A DNA stretch of 64,000 nt. Origin: PVC group bacterium (GTDB lineage: Bacteria > Auribacterota > Erginobacteria > Erginobacterales > Erginobacteraceae). Both the position numbers and the translations under genes were made by a program. The notes under the pieces are model-generated. The model was given only the letters and a program-made list of their open reading frames with translations, did not search any database and had not been told where the DNA came from. Shown here piece by piece: positions 58,376 to 64,000 of the stretch; position 1 is the first letter of the stretch; every line of letters begins with the position of its first letter. The stretch is from assembly GCA_043804695.1 (NCBI GenBank), contig JAZDIV010000106.1:344-64343 (forward strand). Direction: 5' to 3'.

Positions 58376-58545
58376 ATTTTCGCCACCAAGGCACAAAGAC
58401 ACGAAGATAATGTTGATAATCATATGGGAATCAGGATGTTCATGTCTCATTACTCCAGCACTCCAAGACTCCATTATTCCATTGTTCCCCTCCCGTCTTT
58501 CTTGGTGACTTGGTGTCTTAGTGGCTAAATCAAGGGAAAAGGGTC

Positions 58546-60042
58546 ATGAAGGTAATATTTGAAAAAAGCGTCCCGGGACGGGAAGGCTATTCGCTTCCCC
58601 GGGACCGGTTCGAAGACATCCCCCTGGACGACTGCATCCCCCCCGCCGCCCGGGGGGAGAAGAAGGCCCTGGTCGAGGTCTCGGAGGTTGACGTTGTCCG
58701 GCATTTTACCCGGCTCTCCAAGTTCAACTACGGCATCGAGGACGGCCTCTATCCCCTGGGTTCCTGCACGATGAAGTATAATCCCAAGGTCAACGAGCAC
58801 CTGGCCTCGCTGGACAGCTTTCGCCACGCCCACCCCTTCGCCCCCGAGGCCGCCGTCCAGGGCTGCCTGCAGATCATGTACGAGCTGAGCGGGCTTCTCT
58901 GCCGGATAACCGGGATGGACGCCTATACGCTGGCACCCGCGGCCGGCGCCCACGGCGAACTGACCGGCGTTTTGATCATCCGGAAGTATTTTGAGGACCG
59001 GGGAGAGAAAAGGGGGAAGATGCTGGTCCCGGATTCCGCTCACGGGACCAACCCCGCCTCCTCCGCGATGGCCGGGTTCAGGATCGTGGAGCTGAAGTCG
59101 AACGACGCGGGGACCGTTGACATCGGGGAACTGGAGCGGGCGATGGACAGCACCACCGCCGGGCTGATGCTGACCAACCCCAACACGGTGGGGCTGTTCG
59201 ATGACCGGATCGACGAGATCGCCCGGATCGTGCACCGGAAGGGAGGCCTTCTCTACTACGACGGCGCCAATCTCAACGCCACCCTGGGCCTCCTCCGCCC
59301 GGGCGACACCGGATTCGACGTGGTTCACCTGAACCTCCACAAGACGTTTGCCACCCCCCACGGCGGGGGTGGTCCGGGCGCCGGCCCGGTGGGGGTGAAA
59401 AAATTCCTCTGTCCCTATCTCCCCTCGCCGGTTGTTGTCTTTGACGGTGGGAAATACCGGCTCCGAGACCCGGGCGAGAAGAGCATCGGGATGATGCGGG
59501 CGTTTTTCTGCAACTTTTCGGTCCTGGTCAAAGCCTACGCCTGGATCCTCTCGATGGGACCCGGGGGTCTGCGGGAGGCCTCAGAGGCCGCCGTCATCAA
59601 CGCCAACTATGTGCTGGCGAAATTAAAAAACTATTTCCGCCCCTCCTACGGCGGCTTCTGCGCCCACGAGTGCGTGCTGACCGGCCGCGATTACAAGCAG
59701 TACGGGGTCAAGACCTTGGACATCGCCAAGCGGCTGATGGATTACGGCTACTATCCCCCAACCATTTATTTCCCCCACTTCGAGCCCCACGCCGAGGAGA
59801 CGATGATGGTGGAGCCCTGCGAGTCGGAAGGGAAAGAGACGCTGGACGACTTTATCGCGGCCCTGATCAGGATCTCGGAAGAAGCCCGGACCGACCCGGA
59901 GCTGGTGCGGAACGCCCCCCACACCACCCGGATCCGCCGGACCGACGATGTCCTGGCCGCCCGCCGCCCGATCCTTCACTACGACGACGAGCTTCGGATG
60001 AAAGACAAGCTAAACTACCGCCCGGAAGATATCACCTTCTAA
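58546..60042 (+). CDS. gcvPB: glycine dehydrogenase (decarboxylating), subunit 2
   Basis: LGSCTMKYNPK and HLNLHKTFATPHGGGGPG (PLP-lysine region) are typical of GcvPB. Confidence 0.95.
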   Translation: MKVIFEKSVPGREGYSLPRDRFEDIPLDDCIPPAARGEKKALVEVSEVDVVRHFTRLSKFNYGIEDGLYPLGSCTMKYNPKVNEHLASLDSFRHAHPFAPEAAVQGCLQIMYELSGLLCRITGMDAYTLAPAAGAHGELTGVLIIRKYFEDRGEKRGKMLVPDSAHGTNPASSAMAGFRIVELKSNDAGTVDIGELERAMDSTTAGLMLTNPNTVGLFDDRIDEIARIVHRKGGLLYYDGANLNATLGLLRPGDTGFDVVHLNLHKTFATPHGGGGPGAGPVGVKKFLCPYLPSPVVVFDGGKYRLRDPGEKSIGMMRAFFCNFSVLVKAYAWILSMGPGGLREASEAAVINANYVLAKLKNYFRPSYGGFCAHECVLTGRDYKQYGVKTLDIAKRLMDYGYYPPTIYFPHFEPHAEETMMVEPCESEGKETLDDFIAALIRISEEARTDPELVRNAPHTTRIRRTDDVLAARRPILHYDDELRMKDKLNYRPEDITF

Positions 60043-60080
60043 AAACAGCCCCTTCCTCGGTAGAGGAAGGGGCTGTTTTT
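60041..60080. terminator. bidirectional rho-independent terminator after gcvPB
   Basis: AAAAACAGCCCCTTCCtcggtagaGGAAGGGGCTGTTTTT (A-run, GC stem, T-run). Confidence 0.85.
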
Positions 60081-60157
60081 AGAACGTCGAGCATGACCCT
60101 CAAATCAACCCGCGCAAAGCGCGGGTTGATTTGAGGGTGTCCATGCTCTTGTTCTCC
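60081..60157 (-). other. attC-like site D (77 bp), distal end of the array
   Basis: Read on the minus strand: GGAGAAC-aagag-CATGGACACCCTCAAATCAACCCGCGC-ttt-GCGCGGGTTGATTTGAGGGTCATG-ctcgac-GTTCT. The arm next to the ORF carries extra unpaired bases. Confidence 0.45.
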
Positions 60158-60166
60158 GCTCCCTGT

Positions 60167-60412
60167 CTACATGGCAACAGGGGTAAGCGTGAAGACGCGG
60201 GCAAGGCCGCTTGCGTCCTTGAGGTCACCTCGACGAAGCGCTTCGCGCACATCGTCCAGCCTGTAGGCGTCGTCCAGGGAAAGATATGGGGACCAGCCGG
60301 TGTCTGAGTCAATCAACTCCACATCGACTTCTGCCACGTAGTCTCCCTCATGAACGAGCTTCGTGTGATGCCTGGTTGTCATGTCCTTCTGCTCCTGAAA
60401 CCATTTGTCCAT
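60167..60412 (-). CDS. small conserved hypothetical protein
   Basis: KLVHEGDYVAEVDVELIDSDTGWSPYLSLDDAYRLDDVREALRRGDLKDASGLARVFTLTPVA. I recall this pattern from widespread about 80-aa proteins of unknown function. Start set at ATG 60412, because the longer ORF runs into the REP element. Confidence 0.5.
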   Translation of the reverse strand: MDKWFQEQKDMTTRHHTKLVHEGDYVAEVDVELIDSDTGWSPYLSLDDAYRLDDVREALRRGDLKDASGLARVFTLTPVAM

Positions 60413-60485
60413 TTGGCTGCATCCAATGGTTAGACAAGTTACTGTTACTAATGAGAGCGGGTTATAGGTTGCATCCATCACGATA

Positions 60486-60583
60486 GTCATTGCGAGCGAA
60501 GCGAAGCAATCCCGTCATTTTGGATAAGAGGTGGTTATGAATGAAAAAATAGATTGCTTCGCCCCTTCGGGGCTCGCAATGAC
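60486..60583. repeat. REP-like palindromic element, copy 3
   Basis: GTCATTGCGAGCGAAGCGAAGCAATC...GATTGCTTCGCCCCTTCGGGGCTCGCAATGAC. Confidence 0.8.
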
Positions 60584-60657
60584 ATTTCAGGGTTTACCGG
60601 ACAGCCCCTCAAGGGCTGTCCCCGATCTTGATTCTCTAAAAATGCCCCGGCAAGCCG

Positions 60658-62325
60658 TTATTTTTTCTGCTGGGCATACCGAAAAGTGTTCCCGAGGCGC
60701 TCCAGGCCTGCAGAGCAGTCACGGTTTGGCAGGCAGGCCTCGATGAGCACGAGTTTGTCCTTCTCCTGAGCGGCGATTTTCATGGCCCGCTCCAGTTCTT
60801 CCTCCGTGGTGACCCGGAGACCGATAGCATGGGATCCATCATCAAACACCTCGGGCAGTCTTGAGTATTGCCACATCTGAATGTCGTTATACGGACCGTC
60901 TTCATGGAGGACCCGTTCGATCAGATAGCCGTCGTTGTTGATGACCAATATCAGGGCGGGACAACGTTCCCGGATCAGGGTGGAGACCTCCTGCGCTGTC
61001 ATCTGGAAGGCGCCGTCACCGGTGAGCACTACCGGCCGTTTTTTGGGACGCGCCAGCGCCACGCCTAATGCTGCCGGGGTACAGTAACCGATGGAGCAAT
61101 AGAAGGCTTGGACAATGAAGTTCTCAGCCTCTTCAATATGAAATTCAGGGGCTGCGCAGAAGGCGTCACCGGGTTCTGCGAGAAGAATCATCTGGTCGTC
61201 GAGAAAATGGTTCAGACATTCGTATAGGCGGGGCGCTGTCAGAACACACGATGCCTCAGGCACGAACAGTTTCTTGGGATGATAGGATTCAGCCGGATGG
61301 GAGGCCAAGTAAGAACGAGGTTGAACCGCCAAAGTCAGCCTTCGGATGAAATCTCCCAATTGTATTTGATGGTAATAATGGTTGCCGACACGGACCTGGC
61401 CTCCTCCGGCGGCAATCATCCGCCGGTTGTCGAGATTTACGCTGAACAGGCCCGTGTCCAGTTCGGTCATCCAAACCCCGAGAGACAAGAGGCAGTCGGA
61501 ATTCTCTACCTGTCGGCGGACCGCTTCCCGGCTCCAGCCACCTTGGTAGATGCCTTCAAACTGTGGATGAAGCTCCGGCAATACAGACTTACTGCTGAGC
61601 ATTGTGGCAAAAGGAATCTCCGCAGTTTCAACCAGATGAAGTGCTTCGCTCCCAAGGCCGAGCCGGAGCAATTCCACGCCGGCCAGCAGCAGGGGATGAT
61701 CGGAGCTATTGAGCATCTCCGCGGCCTCTGATACGCACTCTGCCAGGCTATCCTCGTCGGAGGACAATGGTGTGTGATCAGGTAGTTCCTCCGGCGGGCG
61801 ACATGGGGCGTAAGCTATATCGGCAGGGATCTCCAGATATACGGGCAACTTCCGAGCGACACAATTCCGGATAACGCGGTCAATCTCCTCAGGAGCGGTA
61901 TTGGGGTCCGTCAGTAGGGCCGCATCGGTCGTCACTTTCCTGAAGATCTCCAACTGCAGGTAGTAGTTGGAAACGAGGTGATGAACCAGGGCGCCCGATT
62001 CTCTGCGTCGGGCCGGCGGGGCTCCGCTGATGACGATCAGGGGCACATGCTCGGCAAATGCCCCTGCTGCGGCGTTCAAAATGCTCAGTCCCCCGACACC
62101 ATAAGTCACAACTGCGGCACCTACGCCGTTTATACGGGCATAGCCGTCTGCTGCATATCCGGCGTTCAGCTCGTTGCAGTTTCCTACCCATTGGATGGGA
62201 CTGGCAACAACCGCGTCCAGGAAATCCAGTACATAATCCCCGGGAACGCCGAAGAGGTGTCTAATACCGATTTCCCGCAGGCGACTGAGAAGGTAACTGG
62301 AAACCGTGTAGCTCGCGTTCATCAA
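60658..62325 (-). CDS. thiamine-diphosphate-dependent alpha-keto-acid decarboxylase (indolepyruvate/phenylpyruvate/pyruvate decarboxylase family)
   Basis: YLLSRLREIGIRHLFGVPGDYVLDFLD, NELNAGYAADGYAR and the TPP-binding GDGAFQMTAQEVST...NNDGY. AAGGAGAG SD 5 nt upstream of the ATG. Confidence 0.85.
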   Translation of the reverse strand: MMNASYTVSSYLLSRLREIGIRHLFGVPGDYVLDFLDAVVASPIQWVGNCNELNAGYAADGYARINGVGAAVVTYGVGGLSILNAAAGAFAEHVPLIVISGAPPARRRESGALVHHLVSNYYLQLEIFRKVTTDAALLTDPNTAPEEIDRVIRNCVARKLPVYLEIPADIAYAPCRPPEELPDHTPLSSDEDSLAECVSEAAEMLNSSDHPLLLAGVELLRLGLGSEALHLVETAEIPFATMLSSKSVLPELHPQFEGIYQGGWSREAVRRQVENSDCLLSLGVWMTELDTGLFSVNLDNRRMIAAGGGQVRVGNHYYHQIQLGDFIRRLTLAVQPRSYLASHPAESYHPKKLFVPEASCVLTAPRLYECLNHFLDDQMILLAEPGDAFCAAPEFHIEEAENFIVQAFYCSIGYCTPAALGVALARPKKRPVVLTGDGAFQMTAQEVSTLIRERCPALILVINNDGYLIERVLHEDGPYNDIQMWQYSRLPEVFDDGSHAIGLRVTTEEELERAMKIAAQEKDKLVLIEACLPNRDCSAGLERLGNTFRYAQQKK

Positions 62326-62350
62326 GCTCTCCTTTACTCAAGAATTGTGG

Positions 62351-62477
62351 TCATAACGAGAAGCTAAGCAGCCGGAAGGGGACATAAAAAATCATACTAC
62401 CCGAAAAACCGACGGCAAAAACAAAACGTCTGACAGCCACACCAGCCCTTCCGGTCAGCTTGAGCGGGTAGTTATGC
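62351..62477 (-). other. attC-like site A (127 bp)
   Basis: Read on the minus strand: GCATAAC-taccc-GCTCAAGC...CCGGAAGGG stem...GCTTAGC-ttctc-GTTATGA. It starts 5 nt after the brnA stop. Full-length homologue of site B. Confidence 0.55.
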
Positions 62478-62482
62478 CTTGT

Positions 62483-62764
62483 TTAGGAAACTTTATCTGC
62501 AAACCTGCCATTGATATACTTATGAAGTATGCTGGAAATGAGGGTCTGATAGGGGAGACCCTCCTCCACAGCTTTTTTTTGGAAGTGAATGAGGTCCTTT
62601 TCGGTCATGCGAATGTTGACACGTTTGTCTTTTCGCAAGGTTGCCCTTGCGTAGTCCTGATAGCGTTTTACTTCCTTCTTGAAGTTCGGAATTCTCCGCC
62701 ATTCACCCCGCTCGACAGACTCTAGGATTTCCTTTTCTTCATTACTCAGTTTCATTGGAGTCAC
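62483..62764 (-). CDS. brnA: BrnA-like antitoxin (ribbon-helix-helix C-terminus)
   Basis: KDKRVNIRMTEKDLIHFQKKAVEEGLPYQTLISSILHKYINGRF matches the BrnA/COG5304-type pattern. Overlaps the upstream toxin gene by 23 nt. Confidence 0.7.
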   Translation of the reverse strand: MTPMKLSNEEKEILESVERGEWRRIPNFKKEVKRYQDYARATLRKDKRVNIRMTEKDLIHFQKKAVEEGLPYQTLISSILHKYINGRFADKVS

Positions 62765-63032
62765 CTCTTAGATAGTGTTTTGTCATTTTACTACTAGGTA
62801 TGATGGTCTTTAAAAAGACGCCGCAATTAGTCTCAACAAAAGGAACGATATAGGCATAGTCTTCAACTTCGATAATGAATATACGCTGGCCGGGGTATTT
62901 CTTCTGGTTCGGATGTACCATCGCATCGAGAAGTCCTTCATGGAGGAGATGAAAAATAATCTCCTCAAAAGTGATACCTCTCTCTTGGCGTAACCATTCA
63001 TTCTTATCTGGATTCCAGTCAAAATATTTCAT
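62742..63032 (-). CDS. brnT: BrnT-like toxin (DUF497 ribonuclease family)
   Basis: FDWNPDKNEWLRQERGITFEEI...RIFIIEVEDYAYIVPFVETNCGVFLKTIIPSSKMTKHY follows the BrnT pattern (F.WD..KN..L...RGI.FEE ... RIISAR-like C-terminus). Start at ATG 63032. Confidence 0.7.
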   Translation of the reverse strand: MKYFDWNPDKNEWLRQERGITFEEIIFHLLHEGLLDAMVHPNQKKYPGQRIFIIEVEDYAYIVPFVETNCGVFLKTIIPSSKMTKHYLRGDSNETE

Positions 63033-63038
63033 GATGTA

Positions 63039-63067
63039 AACATAGCACAACGTGTGCACGTTGGCAA
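63039..63067 (-). promoter_or_regulatory. cassette-internal promoter TTGCCA-17-TATGTT with embedded palindromic operator AACGTG-tg-CACGTT (63049-63062)
   Basis: Minus strand: TTGCCA (63067-63062), TATGTT (63044-63039), then 6 nt to ATG 63032, so the mRNA would be leaderless. The palindrome sits between -35 and -10. Confidence 0.5.
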
Positions 63068-63089
63068 CATATCTTTTGCTTCTTTTAAG

Positions 63090-63218
63090 GTATAACGGAG
63101 AGCTAAACTGCCGGAAGGGGCCGACGAAAAAAGTATGCTACCCGGAAAATACCGGCAAAAAATGAAACGTCCGATAGCTGCACCAGCCCTTCCGATCAGC
63201 TTGAGCGACTGGTTATGT
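63090..63218 (-). other. attC-like site B (129 bp)
   Basis: Read on the minus strand: ACATAAC-cagtc-GCTCAAGC...CGGAAGGG stem...GTTTAGC-tctcc-GTTATAC. Confidence 0.55.
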
Positions 63219-63261
63219 CCTGATACCTTGTCAAAATTTTTCTTTCTATATTTTCAGGGGA

Positions 63262-63477
63262 AGTCAGCAAGACCCCTGCCGCCTTGGCGGCAGGTGAATC
63301 AGTTCATCAGCTAACACCAGCGCCACCAAAATCCAAAGACCCCCGTCACTTTATGTGACGGGTGAATGAGTTCATCTGCTACAACGAGTTCCCGAACCCC
63401 CCGAGAGGGAGACCCCGTTGGTTAGCCTTTAAACTTTCTCCCCTGCCACCCGAGGTGGCAGGGGCCGTTTTGGTTTT
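63262..63477 (+). ncRNA. candidate structured small RNA (three about 70-nt AGACCCC-hairpin units ending in an intrinsic terminator)
   Basis: Possible promoter TTGTCA (63228)-16-TATTTT (63250). Units start at about 63269, 63337 and 63409. Terminator at 63440-63477. No convincing ORF on either strand. Confidence 0.3.
63440..63477 (+). terminator. rho-independent terminator (plus strand)
   Basis: CCCCTGCCACC-cga-GGTGGCAGGGG followed by CCGTTTTGGTTTT. Confidence 0.65.
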
Positions 63478-63548
63478 GCTGCCGGATGTAGCTGTTGAAC
63501 TAATACTCCGGCGAGACAAGCTCGCCGGGGGTAATTTAATATTCTATG

Positions 63549-63783
63549 ACATAACGGAGAGCTGAGCAGAGTCGGCCTAATGACGGGCTTGCCCGGCGAT
63601 TAGGCCGAGTTCTGCTCCAGCGGCTGGATAGGCGGAGCGCAAGCGAAGCCTGTCAATCCGAGGGAGCAGCTTGCTGCTCAGCTCTCCGATAAGCGGGACC
63701 GCTTGCGGTCCCGCTTATCGACCAAGCTCAGCTGCCAGAGCCCGCATCGCGGGCTCTGGTCTGCTGGAGGGAATGCGTTAGGC
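63549..63783 (-). other. attC-like site C (long/composite, 235 bp)
   Basis: On the minus strand a perfect inverse core GCCTAAC (63783-63777) overlaps the TAA stop of the 63778-63987 ORF. The far end, GCTCAGC-tctcc-GTTATGT, is homologous to the same end of sites A and B. The interior holds several extra hairpins. Confidence 0.4.
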
Positions 63784-63987
63784 GTATTCGAAGACTGGCG
63801 TCTCGACAGTTCGAATGGGATTCTTGTTGCTCCGGATGGTTTGTTGGATATGCTCGACTGTCTCAGGAGCAAAGAACTGTTCTCCCGTTTCTCTACACAC
63901 TCGAGCAGGAACATGTTCAATGAGATAGAACTTTCCATCATGTTCGAGACTGTAAGTTACGGTTGTTTCAATCATTGTTTCTTTCAT
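63778..63987 (-). CDS. small YgiT/MqsA-N-terminal-like protein (antitoxin-like; Cys ligands degenerate)
   Basis: YLIEHVPARVCRETGEQFFAPETVEHIQQ resembles the VP..VC..CGE.YF..ET motif of YgiT-type zinc-finger antitoxin domains. A partner gene may lie beyond the window. Confidence 0.45.
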   Translation of the reverse strand: MKETMIETTVTYSLEHDGKFYLIEHVPARVCRETGEQFFAPETVEHIQQTIRSNKNPIRTVETPVFEYA

Positions 63988-64000
63988 GAGGAATAACCCC

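What the first reader, a model, noticed from the sequence alone, without database searches (positions are those of the whole stretch)
60081..64000. Probable integron gene-cassette array abutting the gcv operon (integrase expected off-window)
Four elements (60081-60157, 62351-62477, 63090-63218, 63549-63783) share one layout when read on the minus strand: an RYYYAAC-like box, an unpaired spacer of about 5 nt, an L box, a long imperfect stem, an L box, another spacer of about 5 nt, and a GTT box.
- **Worked example:** site A reads GCATAAC-TACCC-GCTCAAGC ... GCTTAGC-TTCTC-GTTATGA.
- **Stop-codon overlap:** at 63783-63777 the box is a perfect GCCTAAC overlapping the TAA stop of the preceding ORF, as in classical cassettes.
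- **Polarity:** in the three well-resolved sites the L box next to the ORF carries the extra unpaired base(s) (GCTCAAGC vs GCTAAGC; CATG-GACA-CCCTC vs CATG-A-CCCTC). This is the known polarity mark of attC.
- **Gene orientation:** every ORF in the region is on the minus strand, with a site just 3' of its stop.
- **Site similarity:** sites A and B align over their whole length, roughly three quarters identical by eye, as in sedentary chromosomal integrons.
- **Cargo:** typical of cassettes (BrnT/BrnA, a YgiT-like antitoxin, small unknowns).

The array begins immediately after the gcvPB terminator. Given cassette orientation, intI/attI/Pc should lie to the right of position 64000.
Basis: partly seen in the sequence, partly recalled or inferred. 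Interest (0 to 1): 0.8.

Follow-up and report, generated by a model that had tools for sequence, protein, structure and literature searches.

The report
Integron gene-cassette array beside gcv operon
The last 4 kb of the window is a genuine array of integron gene cassettes bounded by attC recombination sites in an uncultured PVC-group bacterium, a new example of a well-known gene-capture system whose integrase cannot be seen because the contig ends inside the array.

Summary
Sites 62351-62477 and 63090-63218 are textbook attC sites. They have AAC/GTT boxes, 5-nt unpaired spacers, paired L boxes, and bulged G and T on the window + strand, placed as in attC-aadA1.

They belong to a 127-137-nt attC family found in same-strand tandem arrays in Ca. 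Auribacterota/PVC MAGs.

Two covariance models built here recover the experimentally known aadA1 and dfrA1 attC sites. They give no hit in 1 Mb of control DNA.

Site 63549-63783 is composite, with two sub-sites plus a palindromic insert. Site 60081-60157 scores poorly, but comparison supports it:
- A homologous cassette in another array ends in an analogous site.
- Homology with an array-free relative stops exactly at its AA|C crossover point.

Two cassettes are shared with another MAG, with breakpoints at the R' box.

The integrase cannot be checked. The source contig (65,061 bp) extends at most 1,061 bp beyond the window. Complete integron or integrase-less cluster (CALIN) therefore stays open.

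The TPP decarboxylase gene lies inside the array but has no attC of its own.

This is a new member of a known kind, of moderate-to-low interest.

The parts
60034..60087 (.). Terminator hairpin of gcvPB, which forms the chromosomal boundary of the array. Its last bases, TTAGAA, supply the outer part of the R' box of the last attC.
   Evidence: Inverted repeat I2. Terminator-like scan hit. Conserved with compensatory changes in relative L104 up to window 60084.
60079..60157 (-). Site A, the last attC of the array and a divergent type. On the + strand (the bottom strand) it reads TTAGAAC-GTCGAG-CATG...stem...(GTC bulge)CATG-CTCTT-GTTCTCC.
   Evidence: Fold at -35.8 kcal/mol, z -11.6, with the bulge on the same arm as in the other sites. 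Models score it weakly: 8.6 and 7.7 bits. Its outer boxes are homologous to the site that follows the homologous gene in L013. Homology with array-free L104 ends at AGAA|C.
60167..60382 (-). 71-aa protein gene, the presumed antitoxin partner of a DUF4258 toxin. About 35 nt of the lost toxin gene's 3' end survive at 60383-60420.
   Evidence: 75% aa and 74% nt identity to L013:699-914, which follows a DUF4258 gene (L013:911-1234) between two attC sites.
60489..60585 (.). 97-nt imperfect palindrome (GTCATTGCGAGCGAAGCGAAGCAATC ... GATTGCTTCG..GCTCGCAATGAC). It lies in the junk interval between the TPP gene and the toxin remnant and is not an attC.
   Evidence: Sequence. 34 nt are 94% identical to an unrelated locus, L076. 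No model hit.
60658..62322 (-). TPP-dependent 2-oxoacid (indolepyruvate-type) decarboxylase gene. It is embedded in the array but lacks its own attC. Its leader begins at the G|TT of attC B.
   Evidence: Pfam TPP_enzyme_N, M and C domains. NCBIfam indolepyruvate decarboxylase hit below cut-off. 84-90% nt homology to L098, L100 and L102 is confined to window 62357/9-60613/48, with different neighbours each time and no attC hits.
62351..62477 (-). attC B (127 nt), belonging to the toxin-antitoxin cassette. On the top strand it reads GCATAAC-TACCC-GCTCAAGC ... GCTTAGC-TTCTC-GTTATGA.
   Evidence: R1 132.9 bits. R2 34.1 bits, E 2e-8.
62483..62755 (-). CopG/BrnA-like antitoxin gene. It overlaps the toxin gene by 14 nt.
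   Evidence: Weak Pfam hits to CopG_antitoxin (21.8 bits) and BrnA (16.9 bits), both below cut-off. ORF layout.
62742..63032 (-). BrnT-like toxin gene with its own promoter-like site at 63067-63039.
   Evidence: Weak Pfam BrnT hit at 17.1 bits, cut-off 34.5. Promoter scan.
63090..63218 (-). attC C (129 nt), belonging to the ORF-less cassette.
   Evidence: R1 136.8 bits. R2 29.5 bits, E 4e-7. 75% identical, together with its cassette, to L013:170-614.
63219..63548 (+). ORF-less cassette holding a conserved, highly structured element. It has two GACCCC-hairpin-GGTGAATSAGTTCAT modules, a long-range helix and a terminator-like hairpin on the + strand.
   Evidence: 75% identical to L013:300-627, which is also bounded by attC sites. 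Compensatory changes in the hairpins. Terminator-like site at 63440-63464. No Rfam hit.
63549..63783 (-). Composite site D, bounded by R' ACATAAC (63549-63555, + strand) and R'' GTTAGGC (63777-63783, + strand), which overlaps the stop of the 69-aa ORF. Sub-site D1 is 63547-63638 and extends as a three-way-junction element to 63697. A perfect palindrome occupies 63687-63720. Sub-site D2 is 63711-63787, a short attC whose R' reads ATC instead of AAC.
   Evidence: R1 gives 20.8 and 31.6 bits. R2 gives 25.7 and 45.5 bits. D1 relatives are L002:503-664 and L010:194-347; D2 relatives are L010:921-996 and L013:1439-1514.
63778..63987 (-). YgiT-type zinc-finger (MqsA-family antitoxin-like) gene. It is the first visible cassette, and the cassette continues beyond the window.
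   Evidence: TIGR03831 at 30.8 bits, cut-off 20.2. Stop codon inside GCCTAAC.

Best explanation
Window 60085-64000 is the distal end of an array of integron gene cassettes. It sits in the chromosome of an uncultured PVC-group bacterium related to Ca. Euphemobacter (Ca. Auribacterota).

**How it works.** Each unit is a gene or a non-coding insert on the - strand followed by an attC site. The window + strand is the attC bottom strand. As single-stranded DNA it folds into the R-box / open spacer / L-box hairpin with extrahelical G and T. An integron integrase (IntI) binds this hairpin and cuts between A and C of the R' AAC. Cassettes are excised as circles and re-inserted by IntI of the clade seen in L001, L007 and L107.

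**The array, from right to left:**
1. A YgiT-type antitoxin cassette, which is cut by the window end, with composite site D.
2. An ORF-less structured cassette with attC C.
3. A BrnT/BrnA-like toxin-antitoxin cassette with attC B.
4. A rearranged 2.27-kb unit closed by divergent attC A. It holds a horizontally acquired TPP decarboxylase gene without its own attC, a palindromic repeat, and an orphan antitoxin gene left by deletion of its DUF4258 toxin.

**Shown:** attC architecture, family membership, array organisation, linkage of the attC family to IntI in relatives, cassette sharing with breakpoints at AAC, and absence of the array in relatives.

**Inferred:** that recombination is or was catalysed by an IntI in this genome. 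Whether intI lies just beyond the contig end (complete sedentary integron) or is absent (CALIN) is also unresolved, and I put this at about even odds.
For: **attC anatomy**
- Searches show it directly.
- The 13-sequence family alignment forms 90.6% standard pairs in the hand-drawn attC structure, against 25-49% when the partners are slid.
- 4 of the 6 R-box pairs carry compensatory changes.

**Strand asymmetry**
- About 133-137 bits on the + strand against 17-25 on the - strand.

**Models are specific and general**
- R1 gives 0 hits in 1,015,758 bases of control loci.
- In a class 1 integron, R1's two best hits are attC-aadA1 (32.1 bits) and attC-dfrA1 (12.4 bits), both on the bottom strand.
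- R2 was built without any window or long-family sequence. It finds B, C, D1 and D2 at E 2e-8 to 6e-12.
- R2 also finds the held-out attC-aadA1 at 42.2 bits.

**Arrays and integrases in relatives**
- 16 loci in Auribacterota/PVC MAGs carry the family, nearly all as same-strand tandem arrays.
- L001 has a full integron integrase: TIGR02249 at 463.7 bits against a cut-off of 265, and 51% identity to IntI1 including the ALERK..W.W..VF patch. It lies 565 bp to the right of an attC.
- L107 has five family attC sites followed by an NCBI-annotated integron integrase.
- L007, L005 and L016 carry intI, damaged or cut off by the end of the stored stretch, in the same geometry.

**Cassette mobility**
- Two window cassettes recur in L013 between attC sites.
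- The shared sequence ends at ...GACATAAC.

**Accessory nature**
- Relatives with GcvPB at 89% and 84% identity keep the upstream synteny but have other genes downstream and no attC.
- Homology with L104 ends at window 60084, the AA|C of site A.
- GC falls from about 0.62 to 0.44-0.56 across the array.
Against: - No intI was found in the 64-kb window.
- The contig has at most 1,061 bp outside the window, so the integrase is unverified.
- No IntI with an accession from this MAG's series turned up.
- Site A is not significant with either model. Its L013 counterpart is missed too.
- Site D departs from the canon. D2 has ATC for AAC. D1 has GAT for GTT at both candidate R'' boxes. In the 63549-63697 reading its outer stem is fully paired, with no open spacer or bulge.
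- The TPP gene has no attC of its own.
- The folding energy of B and C is not better than that of shuffled sequence, z about -1.1 to -1.4.
- IntegronFinder's own attC model could not be run.
Confidence: 0.9

Rival explanations
1. The array is a CALIN: a cluster of attC sites with no neighbouring integrase. It would have been built by insertion of cassettes at a secondary site in the tail of the gcvPB terminator, catalysed by an IntI encoded elsewhere or since lost. This is a variant of the best explanation rather than a contradiction of it.
For: Homology with the array-free relative L104 stops exactly at AGAA|C of site A. That is what attC x secondary-site recombination produces. The R' of site A (GTTCTAA) is non-consensus, as expected of a hybrid junction. 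No intI was found in the window or among annotated proteins of this MAG's accession series. CALINs are about as common as complete integrons, and insertion at secondary sites is a recognised origin (PMC4889954). intI is decaying in relatives: an in-frame stop in L007 and a frameshift in L005.
Against: The breakpoint also coincides, within about 4 nt, with the end of the conserved terminator, so it could be partly chance. The distal junction of a complete integron can look the same. In L001 and L107 the same attC family sits beside intact intI, and those contigs also start inside the array. An assembly break inside the repeats is therefore the simpler reason for not seeing intI.
Confidence: 0.4
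2. The 127-129-nt elements are MITE- or REP-type palindromic repeats unrelated to integrons.
For: They are imperfect palindromes repeated in several genomes. Their folding energy is not better than that of shuffled sequence.
Against: There are no copies in the other 60 kb of the window or in 1 Mb of control loci. Copies elsewhere form same-strand arrays next to integron integrases. Strand asymmetry is strong and the bulged G and T align with those of attC-aadA1. Flanking homology breaks at AAC rather than at target-site duplications.
Confidence: 0.03
3. The hairpins are transcription terminators or regulatory operators of the small toxin-antitoxin genes.
For: Each lies just 3' of an ORF. Site A is a very stable hairpin.
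Against: No T-run follows sites A, B or C on the coding strand. The conserved features are the AAC/GTT boxes, the open spacers and the bulges, not stem strength. The same elements follow unrelated genes and an ORF-less insert.
Confidence: 0.02

Closest known systems
Sedentary chromosomal integrons with homogeneous attC repeats, such as the Vibrio cholerae superintegron and its VCR sites
   Same: It is a chromosomal array of promoterless cassettes in one orientation. It has a dominant, highly similar attC family of about 127-137 nt at 75-87% identity. Toxin-antitoxin cassettes and ORF-less cassettes are present. In relatives the integrase is divergent at the proximal end.
   Different: The host is an uncultured PVC/Auribacterota lineage. 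The arrays mix the long family with short heterogeneous attC sites of 57-90 nt. The integrase was not seen for this array. The attC family is shared across several genera at high identity.
attC-aadA1/aadA7 of class 1 mobile integrons
   Same: The box order and near-identical box sequences match: GCTTGAGC-5 nt-GTTATGC here against GCTTGAAC-GAATT-GTTAGAC there. Two extrahelical bases, G and T, fall in the same model columns. The models built here find it at 32.1 and 42.2 bits. The structural terms are taken from PMC5027507.
   Different: The variable terminal structure is about 65 nt long and A-rich, against a few nt in aadA1. The cargo is unrelated to antibiotic resistance. There is no similarity to any plasmid record.
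CALIN (cluster of attC sites lacking integron-integrase; Cury et al. 2016, PMC4889954)
   Same: At least 4 attC sites lie on one strand less than 4 kb apart, with no intI in the available sequence.
   Different: Absence of intI cannot be established, because the contig ends inside the array.
Cassette insertion at secondary (non-attC) sites by IntI (Recchia and Hall 1994/1995, as cited in PMC4889954)
   Same: Two junctions join an attC R' box to ordinary DNA at G|TT. One is the gcvPB terminator tail and the other is the TPP gene leader.
   Different: This is inferred from breakpoints only. No recombination was observed, and chance coincidence is not excluded.

Membership tests
integron attC site | R' (RYYYAAC) and R'' (GTTRRRY) boxes on the bottom strand, with complementary AAC/GTT triplets | tested here: met
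   B has CATAAC/GTTATG, C has TATAAC/GTTATG, A has AGAAC/GTTCT, and the outer boxes of D are CATAAC/GTTAGG. Across the family, 4 of 6 R-box pairs show compensatory changes. Not met by the D sub-sites taken alone: D2 R' reads ATC and D1 R'' reads GAT.
integron attC site | An unpaired central spacer of about 5 nt on each arm between the R and L boxes | tested here: met
   The spacers are 5 nt, not complementary and not conserved in B, C and across the family. A has only 2-3 open bases. In the 63549-63697 reading of D1 the spacer is fully paired, so that sub-site does not meet this feature.
integron attC site | Extrahelical bases on the L'' side of the bottom strand only, giving strand selectivity | tested here: met
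   Bulged G in GCTT-G-AGC and bulged T six bases further in, on the + strand 3' arm. Both are invariant in 13 of 13 family members and align with those of attC-aadA1. The + strand scores about 5 times the - strand. A carries a 3-nt bulge on the same arm.
integron attC site | Match to the curated attC covariance model used by IntegronFinder | not testable with these tools
   That model is not in Rfam and there were no relevant Rfam hits. As a surrogate, two models built here recover attC-aadA1 and attC-dfrA1 and give no hit in 1 Mb of control loci.
integron attC site | Recombined by an integron integrase as folded single-stranded DNA | not testable with these tools
   Indirect only. Cassette homology breakpoints fall at the AA|C crossover.
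integron cassette array | Two or more attC sites on one strand less than 4 kb apart, each 3' of a cassette read in the same direction | tested here: met
   Sites at 60079, 62351, 63090, 63549 and 63711 are all in one orientation. The ORFs are on the - strand. The rule is from PMC4889954.
integron cassette array | Individual cassettes present or absent between genomes, and the same cassette found in different arrays | tested here: met
   The 71-aa gene with its attC, and the ORF-less cassette with attC C, recur in L013 beside different neighbours. Relatives L104, L105 and L106 lack the array.
complete integron | An intI gene (tyrosine recombinase with the IntI-specific extra domain) next to the array | not testable with these tools
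   There is none in the window. The contig ends at most 1,061 bp beyond the window and the source record is withheld from look-up. The feature is met in relatives carrying the same attC family: L001, and L107 with its integron-integrase annotation.
complete integron | An attI site and a Pc promoter at the proximal end | not testable with these tools
   These would lie off-contig.
CALIN | No integron integrase within 4 kb of the cluster | tested here: inconclusive
   There is none on the left side. The right side is unavailable.
MITE / REP repeats | Dispersed solitary copies with terminal inverted repeats and target-site duplications | tested here: not met
   Copies occur only in the array. No target-site duplication was seen in the junction sequences inspected by eye.

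The most novel reading that the evidence does not exclude
The array may preserve two natural junctions between an attC R' box and ordinary, non-cassette DNA.

- **gcvPB terminator junction.** The break lies at AGAA|C when compared with an array-free relative.
- **TPP decarboxylase junction.** The leader of this widely transferred gene reads GTTATGACCACAATT, and the same sequence occurs in a non-integron homologue. The gene has no attC of its own, yet cassettes lie on both sides of it.

If IntI made both junctions by attC x secondary-site recombination, this locus would be a snapshot of an ordinary gene being drawn into a cassette array. That bears on the unsolved question of how gene cassettes originate.
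Probability: 0.2. Interest if true: 0.6.

Novelty: new member of a known kind. Interest (0 to 1): 0.3.

Why it matters
It documents an integron cassette array and a conserved, VCR-like attC family in Ca. Auribacterota, an uncultured PVC phylum. NCBI's automatic annotation already names integron integrases in this phylum. The one genome paper on the phylum that I checked does not mention integrons.

It also gives usable material:
- a family-specific attC model;
- cassettes shared between MAGs;
- an ORF-less cassette with a conserved structured element;
- two junctions between an attC and non-cassette DNA.

Practically, it shows that arrays of near-identical attC sites break MAG assemblies. Three contigs start or end inside arrays, so counts of complete integrons against CALINs in MAGs will be biased.

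Tried and rejected
**Searches that found nothing**
- The Rfam scan of the region and of the whole window gave nothing relevant.
- Exact look-ups of five window proteins, and of P0121, to extend the contig all came back 'not on record'. The source appears to be withheld.
- Plasmid searches with attC B, the toxin-antitoxin cassette, attC C and the ORF-less cassette gave no match.
- There are no tRNA or tmRNA genes in the region.

**Searches that did not settle the question**
Its best relatives were only 70-71% identical and had no array.
- I tried to link the window to an integrase of the same MAG through NCBI accession series (MFH10388xx). No IntI with such an accession appeared.
- A search for a hidden attC between the TPP stop codon and the 71-aa gene (60383-60657) found no model hit. 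By eye there are only an R''-like AAATAAC overlapping the stop and a degenerate GTTTACC.

**Readings considered and dropped**
- Site D as one 235-nt attC. This is rejected as a simple hairpin because the terminal L boxes do not pair. Related long sites in L002 and L010 do have the same outer limits.
- L001 as the missing proximal end of this very integron. This is rejected because the assemblies differ: PWXJ01 against an MFH-annotated MAG.

Full report
**1. What is in the sequence**

I read 59400-64000 and listed the ORFs. After gcvH-gcvPA-gcvPB on the + strand and a bidirectional terminator (60034-60087), every plausible gene lies on the - strand:
- a 71-aa gene, 60167-60382. The mechanical ORF is 107 aa, but homology starts at MTTRHH.
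- a 554-aa TPP enzyme gene, 60658-62322.
- an overlapping pair of small genes, 62483-62755 and 62742-63032.
- a 69-aa gene, 63778-63987.

GC falls from about 0.62 in the gcv operon to 0.44-0.56.

**2. The two 127-129-nt elements are canonical attC sites**

They are 76-83% identical. On the coding strand, 62351-62477 reads GCATAAC-TACCC-GCTCAAGC...GCTTAGC-TTCTC-GTTATGA.

Folded as DNA:
- the R boxes pair;
- the 5-nt spacers stay open;
- the L boxes pair with one bulged base.

The overall folding energy is no better than that of shuffled sequence (z about -1.1 to -1.4), because the roughly 65-nt interior is A-rich and open.

On the window + strand, which is the bottom strand, the 3' arm reads CCGG-T-CA-GCTT-G-AGC-5 nt-GTTATG. 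It therefore carries a bulged T and a bulged G with six bases between them. From memory I recalled attC-aadA1 as ...GCGGCG-T-CG-GCTT-G-AAC-GAATT-GTTAGAC, and that 60-mer is 100% identical to sequence in R100 and about 2,000 other plasmids. The structural vocabulary (R', R'', EHB, UCS, VTS, and bottom-strand consensus RYYYAAC/GTTRRRY) comes from PMC5027507.

**3. They belong to a family that forms arrays next to integron integrases**

A 22-nt pattern from the conserved arm found 16 loci in GTDB genomes. These include:
- Ca. Euphemobacter frigidus and Ca. Erginobacter occultus, both Ca. Auribacterota in the PVC group;
- a 'PVC group bacterium';
- several unnamed MAGs;
- one MAG labelled Latescibacterota.

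Homology between copies stops at the ATAAC and GTTAKG boxes.

On 13 copies, the attC structure I drew by hand forms 90.6% standard pairs, against 25-49% when the partners are slid. Four of the six R-box pairs show changes on both sides. The deep stem is almost invariant and therefore says nothing either way.

The covariance model R1 found same-strand tandem arrays with 400-2,500 bp spacing in nearly all loci. Examples are L009 with four sites, L010 with five plus a D1-type site, and L011 with three or four.

Integrases in these loci:

| Locus | Integrase evidence |
|---|---|
| L001 | ORF 565 bp to the right of a + strand attC matches the integron-integrase model TIGR02249 end to end (463.7 bits, cut-off 265). 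It is 51% identical to IntI1, including the ALERK..W.W..VF patch. |
| L107 (Ca. Euphemobacter frigidus) | Five family attC sites on the + strand, one more cassette, then an integrase that NCBI annotates as integron integrase (MDP8214266.1). |
| L007 | intI with one in-frame stop, in the same geometry. |
| L005 | Frameshifted intI. |
| L016 | intI cut off by the end of the stored stretch. |

**4. Specificity and generality of the models**

R1:
- no hit in 1,015,758 bases of 80 unrelated or distantly related gcvPB loci;
- none in 56 kb around the TPP homologues;
- only B and C in the whole window with default filters;
- on a class 1 integron (pSE08-00436-1, intI1-dfrA1-aadA1), its two best hits are attC-aadA1 (32.1 bits, E 6e-8) and attC-dfrA1 (12.4 bits, E 0.04). 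Both lie on the bottom strand with the correct limits.

R2 is a second model built from eight short heterogeneous sites of the MAG arrays plus attC-dfrA1. It contains no window sequence and no long-family member.

| Target | R2 score |
|---|---|
| Window D2 | 45.5 bits |
| Window B | 34.1 bits |
| Window C | 29.5 bits |
| Window D1 | 25.7 bits |
| Held-out attC-aadA1 | 42.2 bits |
| Held-out short site, L014:2377-2443 | 23.5 bits |

IntegronFinder's own model was not available.

**5. Site D is composite**

The interior consists of three parts:
- **D1.** This three-way-junction element has an outer stem TAACGGAGAGCTGAGCAG/CTGCTCAGCTCTCCGATA. The stem is fully paired, with no open spacer and no bulge.
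- **A perfect palindrome.** It reads CGATAAGCGGGACCGC..GCGGTCCCGCTTATCG and occupies 63687-63720.
- **D2.** This complete short attC, 63711-63787, has an R' that reads CTTATC instead of CTTAAC.

D1 relatives sit in the arrays of L002 and L010 (83-84% identity). D2 relatives with a normal AAC sit alone in L010 and L013. The palindrome junction recurs in L011. The long sites of L002 and L010 span 215-240 nt and also end in GTTAGGC or GTTATTA. In L002 this again overlaps a stop codon.

I cannot tell whether D works as one long site, as two crippled ones, or holds an ORF-less mini-cassette.

**6. Site A**

The models do not support it: 8.6 bits with E 0.22, and 7.7 bits with E 1.8.

Three comparisons do support it.
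- **A homologous cassette.** The 71-aa gene is 75% identical to L013:699-914, which lies between two attC hits. It is followed there by a 65-nt site with the same outer sequence, AAC-GTC(G)AG-CA...TG-CT(C)TT-GTTCTCC, and a bulge on the same arm.
- **A shared breakpoint.** In L013 the ORF-less cassette abuts that site, whereas in the window it abuts D. The shared sequence ends at ...GACATAAC in both, which is where IntI cuts.
- **An array-free relative.** The closest available relative, L104 (GcvPB 89%), aligns through gcvPB and the terminator with compensatory changes in the stem. It diverges after TTTTTAGAA, at window 60084|60085, the AA|C of site A. This is within about 4 nt of the end of the conserved terminator, so chance is not negligible.

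**7. Cargo**

- The 69-aa protein is a YgiT-type zinc finger: TIGR03831 at 30.8 bits, cut-off 20.2.
- The overlapping pair gives only sub-threshold hits to BrnT, BrnA and CopG. It has a promoter-like site of its own.
- In L013 the 71-aa gene follows a DUF4258 toxin gene. The window keeps only about 35 nt of that gene's 3' end. The toxin has therefore been deleted.
- The TPP enzyme is an indolepyruvate-type decarboxylase.

The TPP enzyme has homologues at 75-92% amino-acid identity in MAGs named as Syntrophales, Bacteroidota, Kiritimatiellia and others. Nucleotide homology of 84-90% to three of them is confined to window 62357/9-60613/48. Each has different neighbours and none has attC sites.

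In L100 the gene follows a CoA ligase and an ACT-domain gene, and its leader also reads GTTATGACCACAATT. The left edge of the transferred unit in the window is therefore the G|TT of attC B. No attC lies between the TPP stop codon and the toxin remnant.

I read this 2.27-kb unit as a rearranged fusion. Whether IntI captured the gene at a secondary site or its attC was lost in the deletion is open.

**8. The integrase**

GcvPB of the window is 100% identical to NCBI MFH1038832.1, 'MAG... [PVC group bacterium]', on a contig of 65,061 bp. At most 1,061 bp lie outside the window, which is too little for the rest of the first cassette plus attI and intI.

The record is withheld from the context look-up. 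No IntI carrying an accession of that series was seen.

The contigs L001 and L107 begin inside arrays and run into intI. Assemblies evidently break in these repeats.

Complete integron or CALIN therefore cannot be decided, and I put it near even. PMC4889954 gives the definitions and notes that CALINs can arise by insertion at secondary sites, by loss of intI or by rearrangement.

**9. Comparison and novelty**

The locus works like a sedentary chromosomal integron of the Vibrio type: a homogeneous long attC family, toxin-antitoxin and ORF-less cassettes. The individual sites match class 1 attC sites box for box.

Membership as attC sites and as a cassette array is met on every feature I could test for B and C. 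D2 meets all but the AAC triplet of its R' box. Membership as a complete integron is untestable here.

Integron integrases of this clade are already named by NCBI's automatic annotation in three Auribacterota MAGs. The Auribacterota genome paper I checked does not mention integrons. A literature search that paired integron or attC with Omnitrophota or Omnitrophica turned up nothing relevant, and its one candidate paper was off-target. I did not run a search pairing integron with Auribacterota.

This is a new member of a known kind.

Noticed in passing
window 63219-63548; L013:300-627: ORF-less cassette with a conserved structured element. It has two GACCCC-hairpin-GGTGAATSAGTTCAT modules whose hairpin sequences differ between the two genomes but stay paired. 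It also has a long-range helix (AGTTCATCAGCTA with TAGCTGTTGAACT) and a terminator-like hairpin with a T-run on the + strand, which is antisense to the cassette direction. There is no Rfam hit, and the motif occurs only in these two loci among those fetched. It is a candidate cassette-borne ncRNA.
   Followed up: partly
window 60658-62322: The TPP decarboxylase gene has homologues at 75-92% amino-acid identity in MAGs named for very different phyla. Nucleotide identity reaches 84-90% in three different gene neighbourhoods. This points to recent, wide horizontal transfer of a 1.7-kb unit that carries its own leader and about 20-45 nt of 3' sequence.
   Followed up: partly
window 60489-60585; L076:6454-6486: 97-nt imperfect palindrome (GTCATTGCGAGCGAAGCGAAGCAATC...). 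A 34-nt stretch is 94% identical to sequence in an unrelated metagenome contig. It looks like a widespread small palindromic repeat, sitting where a toxin gene was deleted.
   Followed up: no
window 63549-63720; L002:503-664; L010:194-347; L011:1830-1897: A conserved element of about 150 nt forms a three-way junction. Its outer stem is a perfect inverted copy of the attC R'-spacer-L' arm, with GAT/ATC in place of GTT/AAC. It is followed by a perfect 34-nt palindrome shared with L011. It always sits at a cassette boundary, and its nature is unexplained.
   Followed up: partly
L007:2934-3914; L005:2036-2915: In related arrays, intI carries an in-frame stop (L007, Y to stop in the ..LMYGSG.. motif) or a frameshift (L005). 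This is either integrase decay or assembly error.
   Followed up: partly
L001 (contig start), L107 (contig start), window right end: Contigs of three MAGs start or end inside arrays of the near-identical attC family. Assemblies therefore break there, and arrays get separated from their integrases.
   Followed up: no
L004:4660-4796: A full-scoring copy of the attC family (142 bits) lies on a 4.8-kb contig binned as Ca. Latescibacterota. This is either cassette exchange across phyla or a binning error.
   Followed up: no
L104:9520-9912 against window 58376-58545: The closest relative has a 130-aa PDDEXK_3 gene between gcvPA and gcvPB. The window has only a 170-nt gap at that position.
   Followed up: no
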